Below are positions 2,870 through 61,383 of a DNA stretch of 64,000 bases, in pieces. The translations under genes were made by a program, and so were the position numbers. Positions within the stretch are counted from its first letter, which is position 1, and every line of letters starts with the position of its first letter. The stretch comes from a virus. Taxonomy: Duplodnaviria; Heunggongvirae; Uroviricota; Caudoviricetes. Location: the IMG/VR virus record IMGVR_UViG_3300017700_000469, positions 64,001-128,000 of that record, one strand, 5' to 3'. A model generated the notes under the pieces. It was not told the DNA's origin and made no database searches. It saw only the letters and a list, made by a program, of their open reading frames with translations.

Positions 2870-3298
2870 GTCGCGCGGCTCGTGCTCGTGGCGATGCGAT
2901 CGCAACCCGCCGGACGTCGGCCGCAGTAGATAGGGAAACGAGCACGAGCCACGCCACGAGCAACCCGCCGGACGTTCGGACGTCTGCGGCTCGCGAGCGA
3001 TCGCAACCCGCCGGACGTTCGGACGTCTGCGGCTCGTGCCGACGTCGCCGGCCGCAGACCACGAGCACGAGCACGAGCACGAGCGCGGCCGACGTCTGCG
3101 GCTCGTGGCTCGTGCTCGTGGCGATGCGATCGCACGAGCAACCCGCCGGACGTTCGGACGTCTGCGGCCGGATTGTCGATAGTCAAAGCCGGCGTAATAA
3201 TTCCGCGCTCGTTTCGTTTGCTTATCTGCGCCTATGGTCTAAGCTAGTGTTATGCGACTGACTATCGCAGACAACCAAGCAACCCGCGAGCCTACATC

Positions 3299-4732
3299 AT
3301 GTGCCAAAATTGCAACGAAACGAGCCACGCAACCCGGACAATCGGACAATTGACGTTCGGTGACATCGTAGGATTAGAGCCGATTGTGCCGATTGAAACG
3401 CCGGCTATCCTGCCGCGCTTGCCGGACGTCACCGATTGTGACGATTGTGAGGATGAAGCCGAAGTTATCGAATGTGAGAATTGTTCCTGCGATGTCGGTG
3501 ACGATAGCTATACCGATGATAGCGGTGACGTCTATTGTGAGGAATGTTATCACGAGATGTATAGCTCGTGCGAATCGTGCGGTGACGTCGTGCCGGCCGA
3601 TGACATCAAGCAAGTATCGGTGCGCGTATGGCGCAACGGTCGCCGGCAATCGATCGATTCTTGCTTGTGCGAATCGTGTTTCGATCGCGATTATTTCACA
3701 TGCGCCGATTGTAACGGCACGTCGCCGGACGATGTCGGTGGTACCAATTGTGACGGCGATCGCGTTTGTGAGAGTTGCAGCGAAGATTACAGTTATTGCG
3801 AATCGTGCAGTTCTACGATTCACAACGATAATTCCAACTATAACGAGCGCACCGGCTGCACCGAATGTGACGATTGTTACAGTCCGGGCGGCGATGGCGA
3901 TAAAACCGAATTTGACGCTAAGCGTTTCCGCCGGCCGAATGACATCGCCACGCGCTGCGGCTCGTTGCGATCGTATGGCGTGGAATTAGAGACGTCCGTT
4001 TGTGACGGTCACACCGATTTAGAGGGTCGTGTCTACTTTGGCGCTTGTGAGGATGGCTCCATTGATGGCATGGAGTTCGTTTCTTCCGTTCTTTCCGGTG
4101 ATGCCGGATTAAAGGCTATTGACGATTTTTGCGATCAAGCCGATGGTTTCGAGACTGACAATAAATGCGGTTTTCACGCTCACATCGGAATTGCCGATCT
4201 TACGGATTCGCAACGGCTTTCCGTTTGTATGGCTTACGCGCTAAGCGCCGACGTCTGGCGCTCGTTTGTATCGGAAACACGCCGGCGGAATACCTACTGC
4301 GGCGCGAATAAATGGAGCGCCGACGACGTCGCGAGCGCCGGCAGTTTTGAGGCGCTCGCGGCCGCGCAAACAGACCGTTATCAATGGGTTAACTTGCAAG
4401 CCTATTCGCGCCATAAAACCGTCGAAATCCGTCTACATGGCGCAACCCTTGAATCCGACAAAATCTGCAATTGGGTTGTAGCGCATGTGCGGTTTATCGA
4501 CGTCGTATCGAAAATGACGTTCGCACAATTGCGCAAGCTATTCGCCGGCACCGATTCGGATAAGTTTGCGGCGCTTGCTGCAATGTGGCCGGCCGACGTC
4601 GCGACGTTCTATCACGAGCGCGCCGCTAAGTTTGGAACGGAATACGCCACGCCGGCCGCAGACGTCGCGAGCCGCAAGCCACGAGCACGAGCCGCGCGGC
4701 GCTTGCGTGGCGTGGCTCGTGCGATCGCATAA
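3299..4732 (+). CDS. Putative amidoligase (Amidoligase_2 / COOH-NH2 ligase, glutamine-synthetase-like fold) with N-terminal Cys-rich repeats
   Basis: Motifs YGVELET, DGSIDGMEFVS, CGFHAHIG, RYQWVN and TVEIRLH; ten CxxC pairs in the first 200 aa. Confidence 0.85.
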   Translation: MCQNCNETSHATRTIGQLTFGDIVGLEPIVPIETPAILPRLPDVTDCDDCEDEAEVIECENCSCDVGDDSYTDDSGDVYCEECYHEMYSSCESCGDVVPADDIKQVSVRVWRNGRRQSIDSCLCESCFDRDYFTCADCNGTSPDDVGGTNCDGDRVCESCSEDYSYCESCSSTIHNDNSNYNERTGCTECDDCYSPGGDGDKTEFDAKRFRRPNDIATRCGSLRSYGVELETSVCDGHTDLEGRVYFGACEDGSIDGMEFVSSVLSGDAGLKAIDDFCDQADGFETDNKCGFHAHIGIADLTDSQRLSVCMAYALSADVWRSFVSETRRRNTYCGANKWSADDVASAGSFEALAAAQTDRYQWVNLQAYSRHKTVEIRLHGATLESDKICNWVVAHVRFIDVVSKMTFAQLRKLFAGTDSDKFAALAAMWPADVATFYHERAAKFGTEYATPAADVASRKPRARAARRLRGVARAIA

Positions 4733-19785: not shown

Positions 19786-20958
19786 TTAGTCTTCGGCCCG
19801 ATCGTTCGAGCCACACATCTTCACGATGAGTGGCTCGAACTTCGCCACGACCTCGACCAGATCGCTCTGTGCGGCCATGACTTGTTCGATGTCCTTGTAG
19901 ACGCCGACGACTTCGTCAGCGCCGGCGGACAGCACCGTGATGTTGCGAGCCGAGAGCTTCGCGATCTCGTCCCGGTAGTTGAAGACCTTCTTAGCGGCGG
20001 TCCGCGACATGCAGCGCCCGGCACCGTGCGACGCCGAGTTGAGGGACTCAGCGTTGCCCTTGCCGCGAACGATGTACGCCGGCGTCCCCATCGAGCCGGG
20101 GATGACGCCGAGCACACCGGCACCGGCGGGCGTCGCACCCTTACGGTGGACGATCACTTCCTTACCGCCGTGCGTTTCCTTCCACGCGAAGTTGTGGTGG
20201 TTCTGTACGGTGAAGATCGGTTGCAGATCGGCGGCCTTAGCGATCTCGCGATGGATGACGTCGTGGTTCGCGGCCGAGTATTCACCCATGAGGTTCATGG
20301 CGGCGAAATACTCGTCGCCTTCCGGCGTACCGAGATCGAGCCACGCAAGGTCGCCGTATTCCGGCCGCTTGGCCTTGGCGATCTTCGAGTAGTGGTTGCA
20401 GACCGCAGCGCCAGTCCCACGCGAGCCACTGTGCGACATCAGCGCGATCAGCGGGCCGGCGAGCGACAGCGATTGGTTGTTCTTGTCGAGCGTCTTTTCG
20501 TCGAAGGTGACGACGCCCCATTCGACGAAGTGGTTGCCGGACCCGCTCGTACCGAGTTGACGGCGAGCCTTGGCTTGGTTCTCTAACGTCACCGGCGACA
20601 CGCCCCAGTCGCGGGTCAGCACTTCGTGGCCGTTGTTGCCACGGTGCTCGACGCCGACGCCAAAGTAGGTGTTCCGTTCCAGCAGATCGCAGTAGCGTGC
20701 CCGGTAGCTGTCCAACTCAAAGGGACGGCCGCCGAAGACGGTGAGCTTCATCCGGCAGGCGATGTCCACGCCGACCGCATACGGGCAGACGGCGTTGTCG
20801 AGGGCGAGCACGCCGCCGATCGGCAGGCCGTAGCCTTGGTGAGCGTCAGCCATGAGAGCGCCGCCGACCGCGACCGGAAGACGACAGGCGGCTTCCATCT
20901 GCGTGATTGCGCCTTGCTCGATGCCTTCAGCGCCCCAGGTGCGATACGGAGTGGTCAT
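19786..20958 (-). CDS. rtcB: RtcB RNA 3'-phosphate/5'-OH ligase
   Basis: ADAHQGYGLPIGGV, AVGVDIACRM, LGTSGSGNHFVE, MSHSGSRG, HHNFAW, HRKGATPA, IPGSMG, SASHGAGR, KDIEQVM. Confidence 0.97.
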   Translation of the reverse strand: MTTPYRTWGAEGIEQGAITQMEAACRLPVAVGGALMADAHQGYGLPIGGVLALDNAVCPYAVGVDIACRMKLTVFGGRPFELDSYRARYCDLLERNTYFGVGVEHRGNNGHEVLTRDWGVSPVTLENQAKARRQLGTSGSGNHFVEWGVVTFDEKTLDKNNQSLSLAGPLIALMSHSGSRGTGAAVCNHYSKIAKAKRPEYGDLAWLDLGTPEGDEYFAAMNLMGEYSAANHDVIHREIAKAADLQPIFTVQNHHNFAWKETHGGKEVIVHRKGATPAGAGVLGVIPGSMGTPAYIVRGKGNAESLNSASHGAGRCMSRTAAKKVFNYRDEIAKLSARNITVLSAGADEVVGVYKDIEQVMAAQSDLVEVVAKFEPLIVKMCGSNDRAED

Positions 20959-25519: not shown

Positions 25520-25902
25520 TGAGCGACGATTCCTGTGCCATACCAGATGCCATCGGTGCCTCGCGACATCGCGTAGCCCCAGAAGACGCACGTACCATTC
25601 ACCGTGGACCAGTGCCCAGGAGAGGCACGCCACGACTTGAAAATCTCATCGGCGGCATCTTGCTCGCCTTGGTTGCGCCACGACATGGCGCACACTTCGG
25701 CGAACCGATAGCCCGGCATCTTCCCGACCAGTTCTTGGAACCGGGCGTCCCAGTTCTGATGGCCAATCTGATGCACACGAGCTTGGTAGCCGGCGTGCCG
25801 CTGAGCCATTGATTGCAGGATCGCGTGCCACCTACCGCTCGTGATGCTCTTCACCCCGAGGCTTCGACCTGTGACCATCAGGCGTTGGTTCGGCGTCATC
25901 AC
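25516..25902 (-). CDS. CAP/SCP-like domain protein
   Basis: EVCA...IFKSWRASPGHW...GYA...GIWY pattern of the CAP superfamily. Confidence 0.65.
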   Translation of the reverse strand: MMTPNQRLMVTGRSLGVKSITSGRWHAILQSMAQRHAGYQARVHQIGHQNWDARFQELVGKMPGYRFAEVCAMSWRNQGEQDAADEIFKSWRASPGHWSTVNGTCVFWGYAMSRGTDGIWYGTGIVAQ

Positions 25903-26681
25903 ACGATGCCGGCGTCTTCGGCCATGCGTTGGGCCATCGCGGCGACCTGCACAAGCTCGTCACGCATCTGCTTGAGATCGCGTTTCGAGGTTCGCAGCTT
26001 GACGATGTCCCAGACTTCATCAACCTCTTCCCACAGGACGGCGAAGCCCTCGTGGAAGCTGTTCTGCTTGCCGGGGTGGCACTCGCGGGCATAGGCGAGT
26101 TCCTTAGCGACCCGCTCGGCGAAAGTCTTCTTAGACTTCGGCACCAAGTCGGGCGGTACCCGCGAGGTACGCCATGCTTCCAGATCGGCTTCGGTCGGAA
26201 GCTGTTTGATTAGCGAAGGGTGGTACTTCGGCGCGTTCGGGTCGGTGTAACCCATCGTGCCCGGTCCGGGCGGCGACGGTTCGGGTGCCTCTTGAACGGT
26301 GTGGACGTTGACCGGGTTGTAGGCCCATTGTGCAGGCACGGTGATCTCGTCGGGTGCGATCTCCCGAGGGCCGCCCTCTTCGTAGCAGCGGACGTCGAGC
26401 CCTTGTGCGGCAAGCGCCCGACCGATGACGCCCATCACGGTGGTCTTACCTACCGAGCCCGAGATCGTGACGGTTACGGCGTCGTTGGTGGTCGGCGGAA
26501 CCGGCCGCACGCGAACCGACATGAACGCCTCGGCCTGGATCGCGATCTTCACGTCCATCGCGGTCACGGGCTCGATGCCACCTTCGAGCTTCGGGATGCC
26601 GAGCACGCCGCCGAGGCCCCACGAGAGGCGGTGGTCCTTACAGACCTTGACGATCGCTTCGAGAAACTCTTGCTTACCCAC
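25899..26681 (-). CDS. Hypothetical protein with C-terminal MazG-like all-alpha NTP-pyrophosphatase domain
   Basis: HEGFAVLWEEVDEVWD ... RDELVQVAAMA. Confidence 0.6.
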   Translation of the reverse strand: MGKQEFLEAIVKVCKDHRLSWGLGGVLGIPKLEGGIEPVTAMDVKIAIQAEAFMSVRVRPVPPTTNDAVTVTISGSVGKTTVMGVIGRALAAQGLDVRCYEEGGPREIAPDEITVPAQWAYNPVNVHTVQEAPEPSPPGPGTMGYTDPNAPKYHPSLIKQLPTEADLEAWRTSRVPPDLVPKSKKTFAERVAKELAYARECHPGKQNSFHEGFAVLWEEVDEVWDIVKLRTSKRDLKQMRDELVQVAAMAQRMAEDAGIV

Positions 26682-26700
26682 AGGAACCTCGTATGAAAAC

Positions 26701-26735
26701 GCCCACGGCCTGGGAGAGACGAACAGGCCGTGGGC
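26701..26735 (-). terminator. Intrinsic terminator of the Ro60 operon
   Basis: 12-bp stem GCCCACGGCCTG/CAGGCCGTGGGC followed by GTTTTC on the minus strand, just after the Ro60 stop. Confidence 0.75.
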
Positions 26736-26756
26736 GGGGCGATGACTTTGGTAGGC

Positions 26757-28409
26757 TTAGGCGGCGTCCGCGTGGGCCGGTTTCTTGGCGTAGCCGGTGA
26801 ACTCGGCGAGGATCGACGGCGTGTCACCGTCGAAGCCGGCGATGTCCAACGTCCCGGCATCTTTCGGGTCCGCGATGCTGTGCCCGTTCGCGGCCATCGA
26901 CACGACCGCGAGCTTGGCGTTGATGCCCATCTGTTGGCGGTAGCGATCGAGAGCTTGGATCGGGTGCTCGGTCTGAGCCGAGTTCGTGTCGCTGTCCGTG
27001 TAGATCACGAACGTATCGACCGGCATGTTCTTGGCGAGTGCGTCGAGGATCGGCGCGGCACAGTTCGTCCCGGCGGCCGGCGTGTTGCTGCATCGGTTGA
27101 CGACGTCGTCGAGCCGCGAGTAGCCGCTGATGCCCAGGTCCACCATCCCATTCGAGAAGGCTGCACAGTAGCTCTGTCGCTCCGTGCGAAGCGTGACCAT
27201 CGCCATGCAGGCCGCGCCTTCACGGGCGTGGATGTGCGTGTCAGCGATCCGGCTCTGTGCCCACGACATCGACGCCGAGACGTCGATCGCGAGGTAGTGC
27301 CGCTTGTTCGTCGGCTCGACGTGGGCGAACGAGTTGTAGAAGGCGTCTTGCAACGCATCCGTGATCTGAGCCACCGGAGTCCAGGTGAGATCGCCCTTCA
27401 CACCGTGGCCGGCGGCGTAGGTGGTCTGAGCGAGCAGGAACTTGAACGGATGGACGCGAGACTTCTGCAAGGCTTTGACGTCGTGGAGGGCGTCGTTCAC
27501 CTTACGGGCTGCCAGCGACATCGGAGCGATCAAACCGATCGACGTCATCTTGTTGACGTTGCGGATCATCGCCCACATCGGCATGTGTTCGAGCAGCGCG
27601 TTCCACACCGCCGGTGAGTTGAGGAACTGCGTCGGGATGTGCTCCCGCACGAGGCGGTAGTCTCGGATGAGCTTGACGACTTGCTTCTCAGTCGTGGCCA
27701 CCTTCACTTGCTCGAAGCCTTCGATCGTCTTCAGCGACTCACCCAACGCGAAGTCGGGCTCAGCCTTCCCGACCGCGTAGCGGTACAGGTAGTTGCGATC
27801 GTGCTCGGTGGTCTTCGGGTGCGATAGCCGCAGCACGTCACGTTGCGTGAAGCCGTTACGGTTCTGGTACTTCGTCATCTGGTACGCCAGATCGGCGACC
27901 GGCTTGTCGTTGTACCAGCGGGCGATGGCGTTGCGGAGAGCACGGCCCCAGCCACGGAACTCTTGGACGTTCTTGATGAAGTCCGCGAGATCGGTGTAGT
28001 AGGTGCAGACGCGCGGCAACACGCGGAGAGCCATCTGCGACGGCGTCTCACCGGCGAAGGTGCGGGTCTCTTTGCTGCCGGCCACGAGAGCCAGCGCGAA
28101 GACGGCGGACGCATTCTTCGGAGCGCGACCGCTCTCGCTGATCTCGACGATCGCGGCGACGGTGCGGGCCGGGTCTTCGGCGACGCACTCAAAGATCGAC
28201 GTGGCATTGTCCACGGTCATCTTGGCTTCGCCGACTTGGAAGTGGCCGCCTTCGCAACCTTGGATCAGGAAGCGGTTGAGCCGGGTCCACTTGTCCACAG
28301 CGAAGCTGAAGCCGCCGCCGTCGTTCTTGACCATGTTAGTGCGGCCGGGAATGGCCTTGGTCTGCGGCGTGGAGCGGATCGACCCTAAATGCTTCGCGTA
28401 GTTGGACAC
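26757..28409 (-). CDS. rsr: Ro60 / Rsr TROVE-domain RNA-binding protein with C-terminal vWA
   Basis: KNDGGGFSF, RLNRFLI, KYQNRNGFTQRDVLRLSHPK, MPMWAMIRN, SRVHPF, AIDVSASM, FVIYTDSDT, DIAGFD; GTG start at 28409 with GGAG SD. Confidence 0.95.
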   Translation of the reverse strand: MSNYAKHLGSIRSTPQTKAIPGRTNMVKNDGGGFSFAVDKWTRLNRFLIQGCEGGHFQVGEAKMTVDNATSIFECVAEDPARTVAAIVEISESGRAPKNASAVFALALVAGSKETRTFAGETPSQMALRVLPRVCTYYTDLADFIKNVQEFRGWGRALRNAIARWYNDKPVADLAYQMTKYQNRNGFTQRDVLRLSHPKTTEHDRNYLYRYAVGKAEPDFALGESLKTIEGFEQVKVATTEKQVVKLIRDYRLVREHIPTQFLNSPAVWNALLEHMPMWAMIRNVNKMTSIGLIAPMSLAARKVNDALHDVKALQKSRVHPFKFLLAQTTYAAGHGVKGDLTWTPVAQITDALQDAFYNSFAHVEPTNKRHYLAIDVSASMSWAQSRIADTHIHAREGAACMAMVTLRTERQSYCAAFSNGMVDLGISGYSRLDDVVNRCSNTPAAGTNCAAPILDALAKNMPVDTFVIYTDSDTNSAQTEHPIQALDRYRQQMGINAKLAVVSMAANGHSIADPKDAGTLDIAGFDGDTPSILAEFTGYAKKPAHADAA

Positions 28410-28433
28410 TGATGAAACTCCGAGGAAAGAAAC

Positions 28434-28569
28434 ATGCGGGCAAAAAGCGAAGTGGGGAAATTTATACCGATGCTCTACCAAGCTGAGCTAACCGACGATG
28501 TTCGCCGGTGGAGGATTTGAACCTCCGACCCTCGGTTCCCGTGAATAACCCACGTCTACGGCCCGCAAT
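28434..28569 (-). ncRNA. yrlA: YrlA-type Y RNA (circularly permuted tRNA mimic)
   Basis: Order: GCGGGC-CGTAG Ro stem, T arm GGAGG-TTCAAAT-CCTCC, acceptor-like stem ACCGGCGA/TCGTCGGT closed by an ACA loop, D arm GCTC-AGCTTGGTA-GAGC, then TTGCCCGC pairing back to the 5' end; directly upstream of Ro60. Confidence 0.9.
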
Positions 28570-28573
28570 ACGG

Positions 28574-28810
28574 TTAGGTGATGTCGATCTTGTCGATCAA
28601 CGTCACCGAGCGAACGACGATGTCTTTGAGGCTGAGATCAGCTTCACACGGGTCTTCCGGCGGCTTTGGCCCGCCTTCCACGACATGGTCGCGGACTCGG
28701 CGGATCGCCACTTCGGCGTCAACGGCGATGACGTTCAGACCGGTGTAGGTCTTTGACGTCCCGGCGATTGAGCGGAACACGGTGTAATACTCAACGCGAT
28801 ACAGACTCAT
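28574..28810 (-). CDS. 79-aa hypothetical protein embedded in the Y RNA array
   Basis: GGAG SD; ATG at 28810; normal coding composition. Confidence 0.7.
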   Translation of the reverse strand: MSLYRVEYYTVFRSIAGTSKTYTGLNVIAVDAEVAIRRVRDHVVEGGPKPPEDPCEADLSLKDIVVRSVTLIDKIDIT

Positions 28811-28828
28811 CAAACACTCCAAGACAAA

Positions 28829-28890
28829 GCGAGCAAGGGATTAGCCGAGGGAAGGGATCGTGGAAGGATAACCCTCAGCAAGCGGCTCGC
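28829..28890 (-). ncRNA. Minimal Y RNA-like hairpin (no tRNA domain)
   Basis: GCGAGC-CG...GCTGAGGG-TTAT...CCCTCGGC...TT-GCTCGC; same architecture as the other Y elements. Confidence 0.7.
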
Positions 28891-28908
28891 AGTTTTACGA
28901 ATAGGAAG

Positions 28909-29044
28909 GGTGGCCGGTGGGACTCGAACCCACGACAGGCGGCTTAAAAGGCAATAAGAGTGATCGTCGGCCCGCGATAACAAAGCACCTGGACTAAGAT
29001 TGAGCACCCAAAAACGCTGCTCTACCAACTGAGCTACAGCCACC
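28909..29044 (-). tRNA. tRNA-Lys(UUU) interrupted by a 62-nt Y-RNA-like insertion (28953-29014); tRNA/Y-RNA hybrid
   Basis: Joining 29044-29015 to 28952-28909 gives (G)GTGGCTG-TA-GCTC-AGTTGGTA-GAGC-A-GCGGC-CTTTTAA-GCCGC-CTGTC-GTGGG-TTCGAGT-CCCAC-CGGCCAC-C; no encoded CCA. Confidence 0.75.
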
Positions 29045-29057
29045 ACACAAACAAACG

Positions 29058-29119
29058 ACAACGGGCAAGTTTGTGACTGAGGGACATATACCAATAACCC
29101 TCGGTCTTCGGCCCATCGT
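29058..29119 (-). ncRNA. Minimal Y RNA (YrlB-like)
   Basis: ACGATGGGC-C-GAAGACCGAGGG-TTATT...CCCTCAGTC...TT-GCCCGTTGT; contains the bacterial Ro-binding motif GCCGAAG. Confidence 0.8.
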
Positions 29120-29124
29120 TTACG

Positions 29125-29502
29125 TTACGCAGCCAACAAGACGCTGGCGTCTCGCGGAGCGAATACTTTCATCTTCGTGATTCGTACATGACCGATCTTG
29201 CAACCGGCCACACGAACCTCGGTGTGCGATTCCGACCGGCCTTCGCTGATCGGTTGAAGCCCGGCAAGGTAGCCGACGACTTCCTTCAACAGACGCAGTT
29301 CACGATTGCCGTCGTGTTGACCGACGCCACCTGCGGTGTCTTCGTCTTCCTCGGCAACCGGAAGAATCGCGGATTCGATCGCTGCGGCGAGTTCCACCGA
29401 CGTCGGCAGTTCGAGGAAGTAACCCTCGAAGTTGGACCGGGTCGAGCATCCCGAGACGCTGATATGAAGTAGTGGAATCTCTCGCATCGTCATGTCTCGC
29501 AT
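29125..29502 (-). CDS. Hypothetical protein, first gene of the Ro60/Y RNA operon
   Basis: Lies between a class 2 promoter and the Y RNA array. Confidence 0.65.
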   Translation of the reverse strand: MRDMTMREIPLLHISVSGCSTRSNFEGYFLELPTSVELAAAIESAILPVAEEDEDTAGGVGQHDGNRELRLLKEVVGYLAGLQPISEGRSESHTEVRVAGCKIGHVRITKMKVFAPRDASVLLAA

Positions 29503-29519
29503 TGTGTTGTTGACAGAAC

Positions 29520-29550
29520 TAACACGTCGGCGAGCATCAAACGGTTTTTA
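29520..29550 (-). promoter_or_regulatory. Class 2 (ECF-type) promoter heading the Ro60/Y RNA operon
   Basis: TAAAAACC-N16-CGTGTTA. Confidence 0.75.
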
Positions 29551-29847
29551 GATTTCCAAGTTCTTCTGAGTCGCGAACTCTTCGATCAGTGCGTAGTCCG
29601 TCAGACCGAAGAACGCATTGATCTCTTGAGGGGTGGCGGGGCCGAGCGGGCCGAAGCGCTCTAAGAGATTGACGCCGGCACGTTCGGCGGCGTCGATGAG
29701 CGGCATTACGCGGAACATCTCGCCGAGGAACCAGCGATTGCCCTTGGCCTTAGCCCGGATGCACATCTTCTCGATGCGGGTCCGCCACTTCTTAGCGCGG
29801 CGTCGGCTTGGCGTCTTGAAACGACGACGGTTGAGTGCTTTGTTCAT
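29548..29847 (-). CDS. Basic hypothetical protein
   Basis: ATG 5 nt after a class 2 -10 box. Confidence 0.65.
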   Translation of the reverse strand: MNKALNRRRFKTPSRRRAKKWRTRIEKMCIRAKAKGNRWFLGEMFRVMPLIDAAERAGVNLLERFGPLGPATPQEINAFFGLTDYALIEEFATQKNLEI

Positions 29848-29852
29848 GGGAT

Positions 29853-29883
29853 TAACACGAACAAAGCACTCAACCGGTTTTCA
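29853..29883 (-). promoter_or_regulatory. Class 2 (ECF-type) promoter overlapping a 17-bp inverted repeat
   Basis: TGAAAACC-N16-CGTGTTA. Confidence 0.75.
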
Positions 29884-29888
29884 GATTC

Positions 29889-30512
29889 TTAACCTGCTCG
29901 CAGGCGTTGAACTGTACGATCGGCCTCGGCGAGCCGACACCGCAAGAACTTCAGGGCTCGGTGGACTCGCGTCTTCAGTGAGCCGATCGGGATATTGATC
30001 TGACTCGCGGCGTCGGCGAACGACAGCCCCTTGAAGTAGACGGCGTCAAGCGCCGTGCGATCGTCATCAGGCAGTAGGTCCATCACCTGTCGAAGCTCTT
30101 CGTTCCGTTCGTTGGTCGTGACCGCCGCTAGCGGGTTGATGTCCTTCGTATCCGGGAAGTCGAAGGTATGCAGATTCGTGTCTTCGACCAAGTTGTTGAA
30201 GCTCATCGTCGGACGCCTTGCGAGCGCCCGCTTGGAGTCAACCGCTTCGTTGGAAGCGATGAAGAACAGCCACGGTCGGATCGGCCTCGTTAGGTCGATC
30301 GTCGGGGCGGCCTCGGCGAGCTTCAGGAAGGCAACCTGAGTAGCGTCTTCAGCGAGCATCCGGTCGCCGTTGAAGTACCGAAGCGCGAGGTAGTTCGTGA
30401 TCTCGTCACCTAGTCGGTCGTTGATCGCGGTAAAGGCGGCTTGGTCGCCTTGGTTGTAACGCATAAGCAACTGTTCATCGGATTCTCTCTGTGGAGCGCC
30501 GGTCGGCAACAT
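29889..30512 (-). CDS. ECF (group 4) sigma factor
   Basis: Region 2: GDQAAF...AEDATQVAFLKL...RPWLFFIASNEAVD; region 4: LPDDDRTAL...GLSFADAASQINIPIGSLKTRVHRA. Confidence 0.92.
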   Translation of the reverse strand: MLPTGAPQRESDEQLLMRYNQGDQAAFTAINDRLGDEITNYLALRYFNGDRMLAEDATQVAFLKLAEAAPTIDLTRPIRPWLFFIASNEAVDSKRALARRPTMSFNNLVEDTNLHTFDFPDTKDINPLAAVTTNERNEELRQVMDLLPDDDRTALDAVYFKGLSFADAASQINIPIGSLKTRVHRALKFLRCRLAEADRTVQRLRAG

Positions 30513-50068: not shown

Positions 50069-51262
50069 CTAGTTGTCTTGGGCGTTCTTACGGTCCAAGT
50101 AGTCGGCGCTGATCGACTTCACGATCACGCGACCAAGGCCGGGACGACGCTGTTCGACGAGCGGCGTCACCACGATGCCTTCGCGGCCTTTGAACTTGGC
50201 CTTGATCTTCGAGGCGTCGGCGACGGTGGTCGGGCCGTCCGTGTGCTCGCGTAGCACTTCGCGGGTGAACGGGCCGATGTAGAGCGTCGGCACTCGCTCG
50301 ATGTCCCAGCGGTCGCAGATCATCAGCAGGTCTTGGTAGTCGAGGTAGACGCCGTTGACGCTGATGTCGAAGACTCGCAAGCCGAACTCTTCGGCTCCGT
50401 AGTCCATGTCTTGGATGCCGGGGCCGTAAATCTCACCGAAGACGATGACCGAGTTCTCTTCGTTGCAGAGCATCGAGAGCAGGTTCATCACCGGCTCCGT
50501 CATCAACTGCCACCAGATCGGCGTGTTGCCGCACGAGTCCTGCGGCTTCCAGTTCACCTTGTGTGAGCCCGCCATGAACTCGAACTCACCGTCGTCCATA
50601 CGGATCAGTCCGAGGCGGACATTCATCCCGTGGAGCTTCTCGGTGATCCGTACCTGCGTCCCTTCAGGGATCGCGTTCTTGTACTTGTAGAAGTTCTCGA
50701 TGTCGGTGTACTTGTGGAACGCATCGCACGGCGGTGCGGCGTCTGCGTTGAAGCCCTTCGGTCGCGGACCGCACGACAGGCCGGCGGCGGGCGGCTCGTA
50801 CTTGACGGCACCGAAGTAGGAGTCAACATCGAACAAGTCGTGGATGACACCCAGAGTCTCCGTATCGACTCCGAAGTTGCCGGGCACGACCTTGCCGGCC
50901 GAGATCGCCTCGCTGAACGGAAGGTCTAGCTCGATGGCCGCCTTCACGGCGTCTTCCAGCGACGCCACGAACCCGAACGACGAAGCCCCACGAAGCCGAG
51001 TCGCAGCGACACGGCAACGAGTCGAGACGTTGTGGCCAGGGTAGACCGACGTCTTGAGGTATTGCGTGACGCCCAGCTTCTCGCTGACGGCTTCAGGGAT
51101 CAGCAGGTTCGGTGGGAACCAGAGGACGATGTCCCCCGTCGTGAATCGACCCTTCGGCACGCAGCACTCGGCTCCGAGCACTTCCGCGATCTCCAAACGG
51201 TCGGCGTTCGGATGCGGGTGGATCGACCCGAGGGCGACGACTTCGACGTTGATGGTGGACAT
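50069..51262 (-). CDS. ATP-dependent RNA ligase, DRB0094 (Rnl5-like) family
   Basis: N-terminal IHPHPNADRLEIA, motif I TEKLHG, FGEIYG, REGIVV, VKSIS. Confidence 0.85.
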   Translation of the reverse strand: MSTINVEVVALGSIHPHPNADRLEIAEVLGAECCVPKGRFTTGDIVLWFPPNLLIPEAVSEKLGVTQYLKTSVYPGHNVSTRCRVAATRLRGASSFGFVASLEDAVKAAIELDLPFSEAISAGKVVPGNFGVDTETLGVIHDLFDVDSYFGAVKYEPPAAGLSCGPRPKGFNADAAPPCDAFHKYTDIENFYKYKNAIPEGTQVRITEKLHGMNVRLGLIRMDDGEFEFMAGSHKVNWKPQDSCGNTPIWWQLMTEPVMNLLSMLCNEENSVIVFGEIYGPGIQDMDYGAEEFGLRVFDISVNGVYLDYQDLLMICDRWDIERVPTLYIGPFTREVLREHTDGPTTVADASKIKAKFKGREGIVVTPLVEQRRPGLGRVIVKSISADYLDRKNAQDN

Positions 51263-61297: not shown

Positions 61298-61311
61298 ACG
61301 TTTCTCCAAAG

Positions 61312-61383
61312 CTGCATCGCCTGGGCTCGAACCAGGAACCTTCGCATTAACAGTGCGCTGCTCTACCATTGAGCTACGATGCA
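61312..61383 (-). tRNA. tRNA-Asn(GTT)
   Basis: TGCATCG/CGATGCA acceptor, GCTC-AATGGTA-GAGC D arm, CTGTTAA loop, CCTGG-TTCGAGC-CCAGG T arm; no CCA. Confidence 0.93.

What the first reader, a model, noticed from the sequence alone, without database searches (positions are those of the whole stretch)
26701..29550. Self-contained phage Ro60 operon with four different Y-RNA architectures
Seen, in transcription order: class 2 promoter (29550), 125-aa ORF, minimal Y RNA (29058-29119), tRNA/Y hybrid, minimal Y RNA (28829-28890), 79-aa ORF, YrlA (28434-28569), Ro60, terminator (26701). The three free Y elements share a G(G/A)GC-CG start, a GGGTTAT motif and a TT-GC(C/T)CG closing strand. Known: Ro60/Rsr with YrlA/YrlB occurs in bacteria (e.g. 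the Salmonella rsr-yrlBA-rtcBA locus) and has been noted in a few phages, usually with one or two Y RNAs. Inference: a modular set of Ro60 RNPs with different effector domains, plus two small proteins that may be uncharacterised partners.
Basis: partly seen in the sequence, partly recalled or inferred. Interest (0 to 1): 0.85.

Follow-up and report, generated by a model that had tools for sequence, protein, structure and literature searches.

The report
Phage Ro60 gene with Y-RNA array
A complete uncultured phage carries its own Ro60 RNA-binding protein gene behind four small RNA genes of three designs, and one design, a whole tRNA with the Ro60-docking stem grafted into its anticodon stem, was not found in the papers I could search.

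Summary
On the minus strand of a complete 136.5-kb phage, one ECF-type promoter is followed by:
- a conserved 120-125-aa gene;
- hairpin Y RNA "Ya";
- a 135-nt tRNA/Y hybrid;
- hairpin Y RNA "Yb";
- a 78-aa gene;
- a YrlA-like permuted tRNA;
- Ro60 (TROVE+vWA, 550 aa);
- a terminator-like hairpin.

There are three architectures, not four, because the two hairpins belong to one family.

- **Hairpins.** A covariance model built on 16 hairpins hits only these two sites in the phage's own genome. It finds 2-4 copies in many other phage contigs; where a Ro60 gene lies in the fetched DNA it is adjacent.
- **Hybrid.** It recurs in nine phage contigs. In six, removing the 50-66-nt insert restores a 5-bp anticodon stem and a 7-nt anticodon loop. 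The insert is a Y stem in circularly permuted strand order. Covariation is strong (96% paired, 18 of 27 pairs compensatory).
- **Shared motifs.** All three architectures share GGGCCGA/UUGCCC and UUAU(C), the hallmarks of animal Y RNAs. This Ro60 scores closer to frog and human Ro60 than to Deinococcus Rsr.
- **Small proteins.** Nothing links them to Ro60 beyond gene order.

Phage Ro60 with Y RNAs is already published. I could not find the hybrid or the hairpin family described. This scan has met such hybrids before on other phage DNA. No RNA or binding data exist, so function is inferred.

The parts
29520..29547 (-). ECF-sigma-type promoter (AAACC-N16-CGTGTTA) in front of the 125-aa gene
   Evidence: There are five copies on the minus strand of the window against 0.01 expected. 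The same -35/-10 layout lies upstream of the homologous genes in L003, L005, L006 and L008. An ECF-type sigma gene lies at 29889-30512.
29125..29502 (-). Conserved small protein of unknown function. It is 125 aa from the first ATG; homologues align from the third ATG at 29487, giving 120 aa.
   Evidence: Homologues sit at the same position in L003-L006 and L008-L010. The AlphaFold model has pLDDT 80 and no fold match. There are no Pfam or PHROG hits.
29058..29120 (-). Hairpin Y RNA 'Ya': a Ro60-docking lower stem with a bulged C, an upper stem, GGGUUAU and a short apical loop
   Evidence: Model R1 scores 63.1 bits, E 2e-14. Rfam nematode sbRNA family RF01656 scores 32.2 bits, below the gathering score of 38. 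The fold has z -2.1.
28909..29043 (-). tRNA/Y hybrid: a full cloverleaf with a Lys-type CUUUUAA anticodon loop and a 62-nt insert (28953-29014) between positions 29 and 30 of the anticodon stem. The insert is a Y stem in permuted strand order, closed by a 17-nt loop.
   Evidence: Rfam tRNA scores 44.2 bits. Removing the insert gives a 5/5 anticodon stem. The MFE fold of the insert shows the permuted stem. Covariation across six phage contigs: 96.3% of cells paired, 18 of 27 pairs compensatory.
28828..28891 (-). Hairpin Y RNA 'Yb', whose apex is a 3-bp stem with a 7-nt loop (AUC-CUUCCAC-GAU)
   Evidence: Model R1 scores 56.9 bits, E 1e-12. The fold has z -3.0 with the apical mini-hairpin. The apex type is enriched in the family.
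28574..28810 (-). 78-aa ORF (ATG start, GGAG 8 nt upstream; 82 aa from an upstream TTG), unknown function
   Evidence: ORF list and sequence. There is no homologue in related loci. The Atlas gives only hypothetical phage proteins.
28434..28569 (-). YrlA-like Y RNA. The Y stem with GGGUUAU encloses a circularly permuted tRNA: anticodon-like stem, variable loop, T arm, a 7-bp acceptor stem closed by a 5-nt loop, U8-A9 and a D arm.
   Evidence: Rfam YrlA scores 41.4 bits, E 5e-7, below the gathering score of 69. The consensus structure with five relatives has 33 pairs, 14 of them compensatory.
26757..28409 (-). Ro60 gene (550 aa, GTG start)
   Evidence: Pfam TROVE and vWA_Ro60. PHROG 850, 2e-75. 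Best solved relatives are Xenopus Ro60 1YVP (365 bits), human 9NEN (355) and D. radiodurans Rsr 2NVO (313).
26696..26736 (-). Terminator-like hairpin (11-bp G+C-rich stem, 15-nt loop) followed by UUUU
   Evidence: Read directly from the sequence. The consensus scan did not report it.

Best explanation
This is a phage-encoded Ro60 ribonucleoprotein module.

**Transcription and processing (inferred).** A promoter of the phage's own ECF-sigma class probably drives one transcript. It would carry a small conserved protein gene, four Y-type RNAs, a 78-aa gene and Ro60. The RNAs are probably cut out of this precursor. The hybrid and the YrlA-like RNA have 7-bp acceptor stems, so host RNase P and tRNA 3'-end enzymes could cut there. 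That would also free the neighbouring hairpins, which lie only 14-18 nt away.

**Shared docking site.** All four RNAs carry one conserved site: a G(G/A)GCCG(A) 5' strand with an unpaired C opposite a UUGC(C/U)C 3' strand, then a short upper stem, then UUAU(C/U). This matches the Ro60-binding lower stem and the UUAUC motif of animal Y RNAs. Ro60 binding is inferred from this match.

**What differs is the part displayed.**
- Hairpins show a small apex, often shaped like an anticodon loop.
- The YrlA-like RNA shows a circularly permuted tRNA body with a closed acceptor stem.
- The hybrid shows an ordinary-order tRNA with free acceptor ends and an intact Lys(UUU)-type anticodon loop. Its docking stem is permuted and branches from the anticodon stem.

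**Likely function (inferred from context).** Ro60 particles carrying tRNA-like handles probably act in tRNA or RNA damage control during infection. They could tether host or phage enzymes such as PNPase or the phage's RtcB and Rnl ligases. Alternatively they could compete for tRNA-targeting defence nucleases.
For: **Ro60.** The gene is identified by Pfam.

**Hairpin family.**
- 16 hairpins from the window and six related contigs fit one structure. 89.8% of cells pair, against 32-47% when the partner is slid. There are 24 compensatory cells, and 0 of 500 shuffles reach this.
- Model R1 hits only the two hairpins in the phage's own genome.
- It hits 2-4 sites in many other viral contigs. Where a Ro60 gene lies in the fetched stretch it is adjacent.
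- Of five further records checked, both complete ones and one that is 87% complete carry TROVE; the two without it are 18% and 60% complete.

**YrlA-like RNA.** It has 33 consensus pairs, 14 of them compensatory, and the acceptor-like stem covaries at 5 of 6 pairs.

**Hybrid.**
- Long tRNA hits of 123-138 nt lie in or beside Ro60 loci of the window, L010, L070, L099, L023, L126 and L065. L009 and L233 have them too.
- In all nine the 3'-strand word precedes the 5'-strand word.
- The cloverleaf plus the permuted lower stem is 96.3% paired, against 37-44% slid. 18 of 27 pairs are compensatory and 0 of 500 shuffles reach this.
- Removing the insert leaves a 5-bp stem and a loop with U33 and A37 in all six type-ii hybrids.

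**Gene order.** Sigma, ~100-aa gene, ~115-125-aa gene, Y RNAs, Ro60 is conserved in eight related contigs.

**Promoter.**

**Context.**
- RtcB and an Rnl-type ligase lie in the same genome arm.
- The only ordinary tRNAs of the phage are Thr(UGU), Met(CAU) and Asn(GUU).

**Published precedents.**
- Y RNAs encoded upstream of rsr are processed from one precursor and cut by RNase P when the acceptor stem has 7 bp (PMC4201824).
- Thermus phage phiLo Ro60 binds two upstream Y-like RNAs and host PNPase (PMC12135203).
- A Ro60-like protein of phage Bas63 counters a defence system (10.1101/2024.10.10.617714).
Against: - No expression, RNA-end or binding data exist for this uncultured phage. The host is unknown.
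- The YrlA-like RNA is below Rfam's gathering score (41.4 against 69). The hairpin is below the score for the nematode sbRNA family (32.2 against 38). The vertebrate Y_RNA model gave no hit at E up to 10.
- The docking stem inside the window's own hybrid is degenerate. It has a C-A mismatch where the other copies have a bulged C, and UUAUU instead of UUAUC.
- The terminator is atypical, and a further promoter of the same class lies upstream. The limits of the transcription unit are therefore not settled.
- The functional reading rests on gene neighbourhood and on analogy with E. coli systems.
Confidence: 0.78

Rival explanations
1. The hybrid is a working tRNA-Lys(UUU) gene interrupted by an intron-like or mobile insert. 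The insert is removed, perhaps with sealing by the phage RtcB, to give a decoding tRNA. On this reading the Y-like stem is only a processing or stabilising element.
For: - Removing 28953-29014 gives a perfect cloverleaf with a CUUUUAA loop. Five other hybrids behave the same way.
- The phage encodes RtcB.
- It has Thr(UGU) and Asn(GUU) tRNAs but no ordinary tRNA-Lys.
- The authors of the YrlA structure raised the idea that permuted tRNA-like Y RNAs might be processed into tRNAs (10.1101/312249).
Against: - The insert is 50-66 nt and shows no group I intron features.
- It lies in the stem (27/28 to 29/30), not at 37/38.
- No bacterial enzyme equivalent to the splicing endonuclease has been reported (10.1101/312249).
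- Three hybrids (L010, L009, L070) have the module in place of the anticodon loop. No clean excision product can be drawn from them.
- The discriminator base is C in the window, where bacterial tRNA-Lys normally has A73 (my own knowledge).
- The insert keeps the same conserved words as the free Y RNAs, which points to selection on the insert itself.
Confidence: 0.1
2. The hybrid is used in translation as it stands, as a nuclease-resistant tRNA-Lys. The extra arm, with or without Ro60, shields the anticodon stem from host tRNA-cutting defence nucleases.
For: - The acceptor, D, T and anticodon elements are intact and covary.
- PARIS AriB cuts tRNA-Lys(UUU), Thr(UGU) and Asn(GUU) in the anticodon stem between positions 40 and 41. 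Phage T5 escapes with variant copies of exactly these three tRNAs (PMC12409363).
- This phage carries Thr(UGU), Asn(GUU) and the Lys(UUU)-type hybrid.
Against: - A 62-nt helix branching from the anticodon stem should clash with the ribosomal decoding sites (inference).
- Anticodon and discriminator do not match any one identity set across the hybrids: Lys with C73, Cys-type with C73, Lys-type with U73 (identity rules from my own knowledge).
- The anticodons differ between phages (UUU, GCA, UGU, UCC), and three hybrids have no anticodon loop at all.
- The host and its defences are unknown.
Confidence: 0.07
3. The hairpins are not Ro60 ligands. They are ordinary intergenic stem-loops (terminators, RNase sites or repeat elements) that happen to lie in this locus.
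For: - They lie between genes.
- Each z-score is only moderate (-2.1 and -3.0).
- No binding data exist.
Against: - The most conserved positions are unpaired or non-Watson-Crick: GCCGAA, GGGUUAUC and ACUUGCC. A terminator needs none of these, and there is no U tract.
- The model finds them nowhere else in the 136.5-kb genome.
- They co-occur with Ro60 genes of only 34-46% identity in unrelated phage contigs.
- The same words occur in the YrlA-like RNA and in the hybrid.
Confidence: 0.04

Closest known systems
Bacterial rsr loci with YrlA/YrlB or Yrn1/Yrn2 (Salmonella, Mycobacterium smegmatis, Deinococcus radiodurans, 22 phages; Chen et al. 2014, PMC4201824; YrlA structure, 10.1101/312249)
   Same: - Two or more Y RNAs lie just upstream of Ro60 on the same strand, and in M. 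smegmatis they are processed from one precursor.
- One RNA is a circularly permuted tRNA mimic (T arm, closed acceptor stem, D arm) mounted on the Ro60-binding stem.
[quoted passage not shown]
- The 7-bp acceptor stem of the window's YrlA-like RNA matches the M. smegmatis case that RNase P cuts.
   Different: - Four RNAs are present instead of two.
- The YrlA-like RNA is below the Rfam threshold.
- The docking stem is of the animal type (GGGCCGA/UUGCCC plus UUAUC) rather than only the GNCGAA word.
- The hybrid has the opposite topology to YrlA: free acceptor ends, an intact anticodon loop and a closed docking stem. I did not find this in these papers.
Thermus phage phiLo Ro60 with Yrl1 and Yrl2 (PMC12135203)
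   Same: A phage-encoded Ro60 has Y-like RNAs encoded upstream. Binding to the RNAs and to host PNPase was shown in vitro. A counter-defence role was proposed.
   Different: - The two proteins are only distantly related (32 bits against 365 for Xenopus Ro60).
- phiLo has two stem-bulge-stem RNAs. No tRNA-like RNA and no hybrid are reported.
Animal Y RNAs and nematode stem-bulge RNAs (review PMC4726728; Rfam RF00019, RF01656)
   Same: - The lower stem has a single unpaired C.
- A short upper stem often reads GUG...CAC.
- A UUAUC motif follows directly.
- One window hairpin and one relative give sub-threshold hits to the nematode family.
- This Ro60 scores higher against frog and human Ro60 than against Deinococcus Rsr.
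   Different: - The phage RNAs have a much smaller loop.
- No Pol III signals or oligo-U tail are seen.
- They are encoded in a phage operon.
- There is no hit to the vertebrate Y_RNA model.
- Shared descent is not shown.
Phage tRNA sets and RNA-repair kits that counter tRNA-cutting defences (T5 tRNAs against PARIS, PMC12409363 and PMC11464382; T4 Pnk/Rnl1 against PrrC, as cited there; Bas63 gp130 Ro60-like counter of ppl, 10.1101/2024.10.10.617714)
   Same: - The phage has a small tRNA set of Thr(UGU) and Asn(GUU) plus a Lys(UUU)-type anticodon arm.
- It carries two RNA ligases of complementary end chemistry in the same genome arm.
- A Ro60-type protein has been shown experimentally to act as a defence counter in another phage.
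   Different: - The Lys element here is not a plain tRNA variant. It is fused to a Ro60-docking stem.
- No defence system, host or phenotype is known for this phage.

Membership tests
Ro60 / TROVE proteins | TROVE (HEAT-repeat ring) domain followed by a Ro60-type vWA domain | tested here: met
   Pfam TROVE 1.2e-41 and vWA_Ro60 2.8e-53, both far above their cut-offs. Full-length matches to solved Ro60 structures 1YVP, 9NEN and 2NVO.
Ro60 / TROVE proteins | Binds Y RNA on the outer surface of the ring | not testable with these tools
   This needs a binding assay. Here there is only co-occurrence with RNAs that carry the docking motif.
YrlA (Rfam RF02553) | Score at or above Rfam's gathering score (69 bits) | tested here: not met
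   41.4 bits, E 5e-7, at 28434-28552. Relatives score 30-35 bits.
YrlA (Rfam RF02553) | Ro60-binding stem enclosing a T arm, an acceptor-like stem-loop and a D arm in permuted order | tested here: met
   The consensus structure of six sequences has 33 pairs, 14 compensatory. The T loop reads UUCAAAU and the D arm GCUC/GAGC. The 7-bp acceptor stem is closed by a 5-nt loop.
YrlA (Rfam RF02553) | GNCGAAN0-1G word near the 5' end (PMC4201824) | tested here: inconclusive
   The window's YrlA-like RNA reads GCCGUAG, with one mismatch. Relatives read GCCGACG. The hairpin Ya reads GCCGAAG, an exact match.
YrlA (Rfam RF02553) | Encoded within 4 kb of Ro60 on the same strand | tested here: met
   It ends 25 nt upstream of the Ro60 start codon on the same strand.
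Animal Y RNA / nematode sbRNA (RF00019, RF01656) | Score at or above the Rfam gathering score | tested here: not met
   RF01656 scores 32.2 bits against 38 for Ya. RF00019 gives no hit at E up to 10.
Animal Y RNA / nematode sbRNA (RF00019, RF01656) | Lower stem with one unpaired C, an upper stem, and UUAUC at the start of the loop (PMC4726728) | tested here: met
   An invariant C lies between the paired blocks. G-U and A-U pairs follow. GGGUUAU is invariant in 16 of 16 seed hairpins, and G/A-UUA-U/C is present in 48 of 49 hits.
Canonical tRNA | Cloverleaf recognised by tRNA models with a 7-nt anticodon loop | tested here: inconclusive
   Rfam tRNA scores 44.2 bits, above its threshold, but only with a 73-nt gap. 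ARAGORN default finds nothing. With introns allowed it forces inconsistent readings. After removing 28953-29014 all stems pair and the loop is CUUUUAA.
Canonical tRNA | Acceptor end matching the anticodon's identity (A73 for bacterial Lys; my own knowledge) | tested here: not met
   The discriminator is C at 28909.
Hairpin-type bacterial Y RNAs (YrlB, Yrn2) | [quoted passage not shown] | tested here: inconclusive
   Shape, position and pyrimidine-rich apex fit. No curated model exists to score against, and binding is untested.

The most novel reading that the evidence does not exclude
Phages use Ro60 as a platform that displays tRNA parts as baits or handles. The hybrid would present a complete tRNA with a Lys(UUU)-type anticodon arm. 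Many hairpins would present a bare anticodon-loop mimic (AUC-N7-GAU; loops such as CUGUUAA, CUUUUAA and CUUCCAC). These would either soak up host anticodon-arm nucleases of the PARIS or PrrC kind, or recruit the phage's RtcB and Rnl ligases to cut tRNAs. If so, the conserved UUAUC junction shared with animal Y RNAs belongs to the Ro60 particle itself. It would not be a replication-specific motif.
Probability: 0.2. Interest if true: 0.85.

Novelty: new variant of a known kind. Interest (0 to 1): 0.7.

Why it matters
Ro60 and Y RNAs are studied mostly in animals, where Ro60 is a lupus and Sjogren autoantigen, and in a few bacteria. What the variable part of a Y RNA recruits is still largely open.

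This locus and its relatives offer a natural series. One docking stem is joined to a hairpin apex, to a permuted tRNA, and to an ordinary-order tRNA with an intact anticodon loop. All three sit in one operon beside a Ro60 that scores closer to the vertebrate protein than to Deinococcus Rsr.

- **Mechanism.** This gives compact, testable substrates for asking how Ro60 reads its site and what the tRNA-like part does.
- **Phage biology.** It links phage Ro60 to the current question of how phages survive tRNA-cutting defence systems.
- **Evolution.** The animal-type lower stem and UUAUC motif in phage RNAs bear on whether bacterial and animal Y RNAs are related, which a 2015 review denies (PMC4726728).

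Tried and rejected
- **Close relatives by protein scan.** The viral collection gave one distant locus and the genome collection gave none. Relatives came instead from the protein search and contig look-ups.
- **Phage DNA similarity.** Only mycobacteriophage Ro-like genes came up, at about 71% identity over 12% of the query.
- **Sigma-70 promoter and terminator scan of the locus.** No promoter was found, and one irrelevant plus-strand terminator.
- **ARAGORN with introns allowed on the hybrids.** It forces canonical-position introns and gives inconsistent anticodons. I rejected it as a description.
- **MAFFT alignment of all eight hybrids.** It misaligned the inserts. The upper stem of the insert could not be put in register automatically, so it was left out of the counted structure.
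- **Pattern scan for the permuted stem in viral contigs.** It gave mostly chance hits and one new hybrid, L233.
- **The same hairpin pattern in bacterial genomes.** Of the first 100 of 120 loci, only a Deinococcales MAG and a Candidatus Elarobacter MAG had model hits. The last 20 loci were not screened.
- **The 125-aa protein.** No Pfam or PHROG family and no fold match.
- **The 78-aa ORF.** Only hypothetical neighbours in the Atlas.
- **Ro60 with the small proteins as a complex.** I did not send a complex prediction. Neighbourhood alone did not justify one, and I make no binding claim.
- **Two reviews on bacterial Y RNAs (PMC10870794, PMC6047535).** They are not held. My statement that the hybrid is undescribed rests on the papers I could search.

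Full report
**Where the window lies.** The window is bases 64001-128000 of a 136,515-bp virus record with direct terminal repeats, rated complete. It carries an integrase, RtcB, an Rnl-type RNA ligase and a family A DNA polymerase. All features of the finding lie on the minus strand.

**Ro60.** The ORF ending at 26757 has Pfam TROVE (1.2e-41) and vWA_Ro60 (2.8e-53), and PHROG 850 'RNA-binding protein'.
- The ORF lister extends it to a TTG at 28481. That extension runs through the YrlA-like RNA.
- The database protein identical to it has 550 aa (P0001). This corresponds to a GTG at 28409 with GGAG 9 nt upstream.
- Among solved structures the best matches are Xenopus Ro60 (1YVP, 365 bits) and human Ro60 (9NEN, 355 bits). 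D. radiodurans Rsr follows (2NVO, 313 bits). The only solved phage Ro60, from Thermus phage phiLo, scores 32 bits.

**The four RNAs in the window.** A permissive Rfam search gives three hits.
- YrlA scores 41.4 bits (E 5e-7, gathering score 69) at 28434-28552.
- tRNA scores 44.2 bits (gathering score 29) at 28909-29043, with 73 nt skipped in the anticodon region.
- The nematode stem-bulge RNA family RF01656, a Y RNA homologue, scores 32.2 bits (gathering score 38) at 29058-29120.

The two short elements fold as bulged hairpins (z -2.1 and -3.0).

**Relatives.** The protein search found Ro60 proteins of 58-67% identity on metagenomic contigs. I fetched eight of these contigs.
- Six share the gene order: ECF-type sigma factor, a ~100-aa gene, a ~115-125-aa gene, an RNA-rich stretch with or without small ORFs, then Ro60. 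One more (L010) is cut off just upstream and shows only the sigma C-terminus before the 122-aa gene. The eighth (L007) starts within 200 nt of Ro60, so its upstream genes are not seen.
- Several have an integrase nearby.

**Hairpin family.** Sixteen hairpins from the window and six of these contigs align with invariant GCCG, GGGTTAT and TTG.
- On the structure I specified, 89.8% of cells form standard pairs, against 32-47% when partners are slid. Seven pairs and 24 cells show changes on both sides. No shuffle of 500 reaches the observed covariation. The structure has a lower stem with one unpaired C followed by G-U and A-U, then an upper stem.
- The position opposite the second base of the lower stem is G-C, A-U or A/C.
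- A covariance model of this alignment (R1) hits only the two window hairpins in the whole phage genome.
- In 117 viral loci pulled by a 14-base pattern it finds 34 further hits on about 20 contigs, often 2-4 per contig.
- tblastn finds Ro60 genes of 34-46% identity beside many of these hits.
- Of five further records checked, both complete ones and one that is 87% complete carry TROVE. The two without it are 18% and 60% complete.
- The same pattern in bacterial species genomes gave model hits only in a Deinococcales MAG and a Candidatus Elarobacter MAG. The latter is a YrlA-like RNA beside a Ro60 gene.

**YrlA-like RNA.** Homologous elements precede Ro60 in L003, L005, L006, L007 and L008.
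- The consensus structure has 33 pairs, 14 of them with compensatory changes.
- It reads as a Y stem, an internal loop beginning UUAU, a 5-bp anticodon-like stem, a variable loop, a T arm, an acceptor-like stem-loop, U8-A9 and a D arm.
- This is the circularly permuted tRNA described for YrlA (PMC4201824; 10.1101/312249).
- The window copy has a 7-bp acceptor stem closed by 5 nt. That is the feature which made M. smegmatis YrlA an RNase P substrate (PMC4201824).
- It fails Rfam's threshold, so I call it YrlA-like.

**The hybrid.** Long tRNA hits of 123-138 nt lie in or beside Ro60 loci of the window, L010, L070, L099, L023, L126 and L065. L009 and L233 have them too. L233's copy lies directly upstream of a TROVE gene.
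- In all nine, the word that forms the 3' strand of a free Y stem (UUGCCC type) comes first. A closing loop of 4-30 nt follows, then the 5' strand word (GGGCCGA type), the upper-stem strand and UUAU(C). The docking stem is therefore circularly permuted relative to free Y RNAs.
- In six hybrids (window, L099, L023, L126, L065, L233) the module sits in the 5' strand of the anticodon stem, between positions 27/28 and 29/30.
- Taking it out leaves a 5-bp stem, 5/5 pairs in five and 4/5 in one. The 7-nt loops are CUUUUAA, AUGCAAA, AUUUUAA, CUUGUAA, UUUCCAA and CUUCCAC. All have U at position 33 and A at 37.
- For the window the insert is 28953-29014.
- In three hybrids (L010, L009, L070) a 5-bp anticodon stem is intact and the module replaces the loop.
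- On the six-sequence alignment, the cloverleaf with the split anticodon stem plus the permuted lower stem is 96.3% paired, against 37-44% slid. 18 of 27 pairs have compensatory changes, and 0 of 500 shuffles reach any measure. The upper stem of the insert was not counted because the alignment did not put it in register.
- YrlA and the hybrid thus have the same overall connectivity, a tRNA body joined through its anticodon stem to a Ro60-docking stem. They differ in which end is open.

**The shared junction.** UUAU(C/U) follows the upper stem in the hairpins (48 of 49 model hits carry G/A-UUA-U/C), in the YrlA-like RNAs and in the hybrids.
- A review of animal Y RNAs lists a lower stem with a single bulged C, an upper stem with GUG-CAC, and a UUAUC motif shared by nematode sbRNAs and vertebrate Y RNAs. 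It states that bacterial Y RNAs are not homologous to them (PMC4726728).
- The phage RNAs here carry all three marks but fall below every Rfam threshold for the animal families. This is a resemblance, not a shown relationship.

**Apex of the hairpins.** In 19 of 48 hairpins a 3-bp stem with a 7-nt loop starts at the AUC of UUAUC. Shuffled apices give 6.4 +/- 2.3, with a maximum of 14.
- Loops such as CUGUUAA (four contigs) and CUUUUAA have the form of anticodon loops.
- The window's Yb has this apex and Ya does not.
- The feature is heterogeneous, and several carriers are close relatives. I treat it as a lead.

**Promoter and terminator.** AAACC-N16-CGTGTTA occurs five times on the minus strand, against 0.01 expected. 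Two of the copies are at 29520-29547 and 29853-29880.
- The same layout (A-rich AAC(C) at -35, CGT at -10) precedes the ~100-aa and ~115-125-aa genes in relatives.
- It fits the ECF class of the adjacent sigma factor (B. subtilis SigW analogy from note e1-5435626).
- No promoter of this class and no sigma-70 match lies inside the RNA array. The RNAs are 5-25 nt from their neighbours, so co-transcription and processing are likely.
- After Ro60 comes an 11-bp G+C-rich stem with a 15-nt loop and UUUU. The next gene starts 15 nt later, so some read-through is plausible.

**Small proteins.**
- The 125-aa protein (more likely 120 aa) belongs to a family present in all seven related contigs whose fetched DNA includes that position. 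Its confident model shows an alpha/beta fold (pLDDT 80) with no match in the PDB or AlphaFold clusters.
- This family, the ~100-aa protein and the sigma factor are absent from the more distant phage Ro60 loci. Their link to Ro60 is lineage synteny only.
- The 78-aa ORF has a good ribosome-binding site but no homologue in any locus. Relatives carry unrelated small ORFs at that position.

**Function.** Shown: sequence, conservation, covariation and co-occurrence with Ro60. Inferred: Ro60 binding, processing and role.
- Thermus phage Ro60 binds two upstream Y-like RNAs and host PNPase (PMC12135203).
- A Ro60-like protein of phage Bas63 counters the ppl defence gene, and its authors guessed that some neighbouring 'tRNA' genes might be Y RNAs (10.1101/2024.10.10.617714).
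- In E. coli the PARIS nuclease AriB cuts tRNA-Lys(UUU), Thr(UGU) and Asn(GUU) in the anticodon stem. Phage T5 escapes with its own copies of these three (PMC12409363).
- The present phage encodes only Thr(UGU), Met(CAU) and Asn(GUU) as ordinary tRNAs. It adds a Lys(UUU)-type anticodon arm on the hybrid, and carries RtcB and an Rnl-type ligase.
- This makes a role in tRNA-damage conflicts the most economical reading. The host is unknown, and the match to an E. coli system may be coincidence.

**Novelty.** Phage Ro60 with Y RNAs is published (PMC4201824, PMC12135203).
- In the papers I could search I found no description of a tRNA carrying a permuted Ro60-docking stem, or of this hairpin family.
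- Two reviews were not available.
- This scan has reported tRNA/Y hybrids beside phage Ro60 on other genomes. The kind is therefore recurrent, and this window is one more, well-ordered example.

Noticed in passing
window 29817-29882 (both strands): A near-perfect ~21-bp inverted repeat with a 7-nt loop contains the spacer and -10 of the second ECF-type promoter (29853-29880), just after the sigma gene's stop codon. It could be the sigma gene's terminator, an operator, or both. It surfaced as spurious microRNA hits in Rfam.
   Followed up: no
whole genome: G000:C1 35069-35142, 35391-35467, 125311-125383 (the last is window 61311-61383): The phage's only ordinary tRNAs are Thr(UGU), Met(CAU) and Asn(GUU). 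Together with the Lys(UUU)-type hybrid, three of the four match the published target set of the E. coli PARIS nuclease AriB (PMC12409363).
   Followed up: partly
window 19786-20958 (-) and 50069-51262 (-): RtcB (Pfam 2e-85) and an Rnl-type RNA ligase with a PHA02142 OB domain lie in the same genome arm as Ro60. The two ligases seal ends of complementary chemistry.
   Followed up: partly
window 26757-28409 (-): This phage Ro60 scores higher against Xenopus and human Ro60 (365 and 355 bits) than against D. radiodurans Rsr (313). It is very far from Thermus phage phiLo Ro60 (32 bits). No tree was built.
   Followed up: no
L004:3905-3980: In one relative the RNA just upstream of Ro60 is a Y stem carrying only a T-arm-like hairpin, not a full permuted tRNA. 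This recalls M. smegmatis YrlB.
   Followed up: no
L073, L035, L022 (viral contigs of 277-436 kb): In very large phages the same hairpins are scattered inside long tRNA gene arrays. In two complete records they lie far from the Ro60 gene: L069's record, and L022's record, where they are about 300 kb away.
   Followed up: partly
window 25899-26681 (-): Only the last ~75 residues of the 260-aa protein downstream of Ro60 are conserved. In seven relatives those residues form a separate ~80-100-aa gene at the same position. The window's long N-terminal part is either lineage-specific or an over-called ORF.
   Followed up: no
L008:2730-3077 and 3157-3489: One relative carries two diverged copies of the 125-aa family, with a hairpin Y RNA between them.
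   Followed up: no
L279 (Deinococcales MAG) 1179-1250 and 1372-1455; L334 (Ca. Elarobacter MAG) 2190-2325: The GGGUUAUC-type Y stem also occurs in a few bacterial genomes. There are two hairpins in a Deinococcales MAG. A YrlA-like RNA lies next to a Ro60 gene 44% identical to the phage's in an Eremiobacterota MAG.
   Followed up: partly
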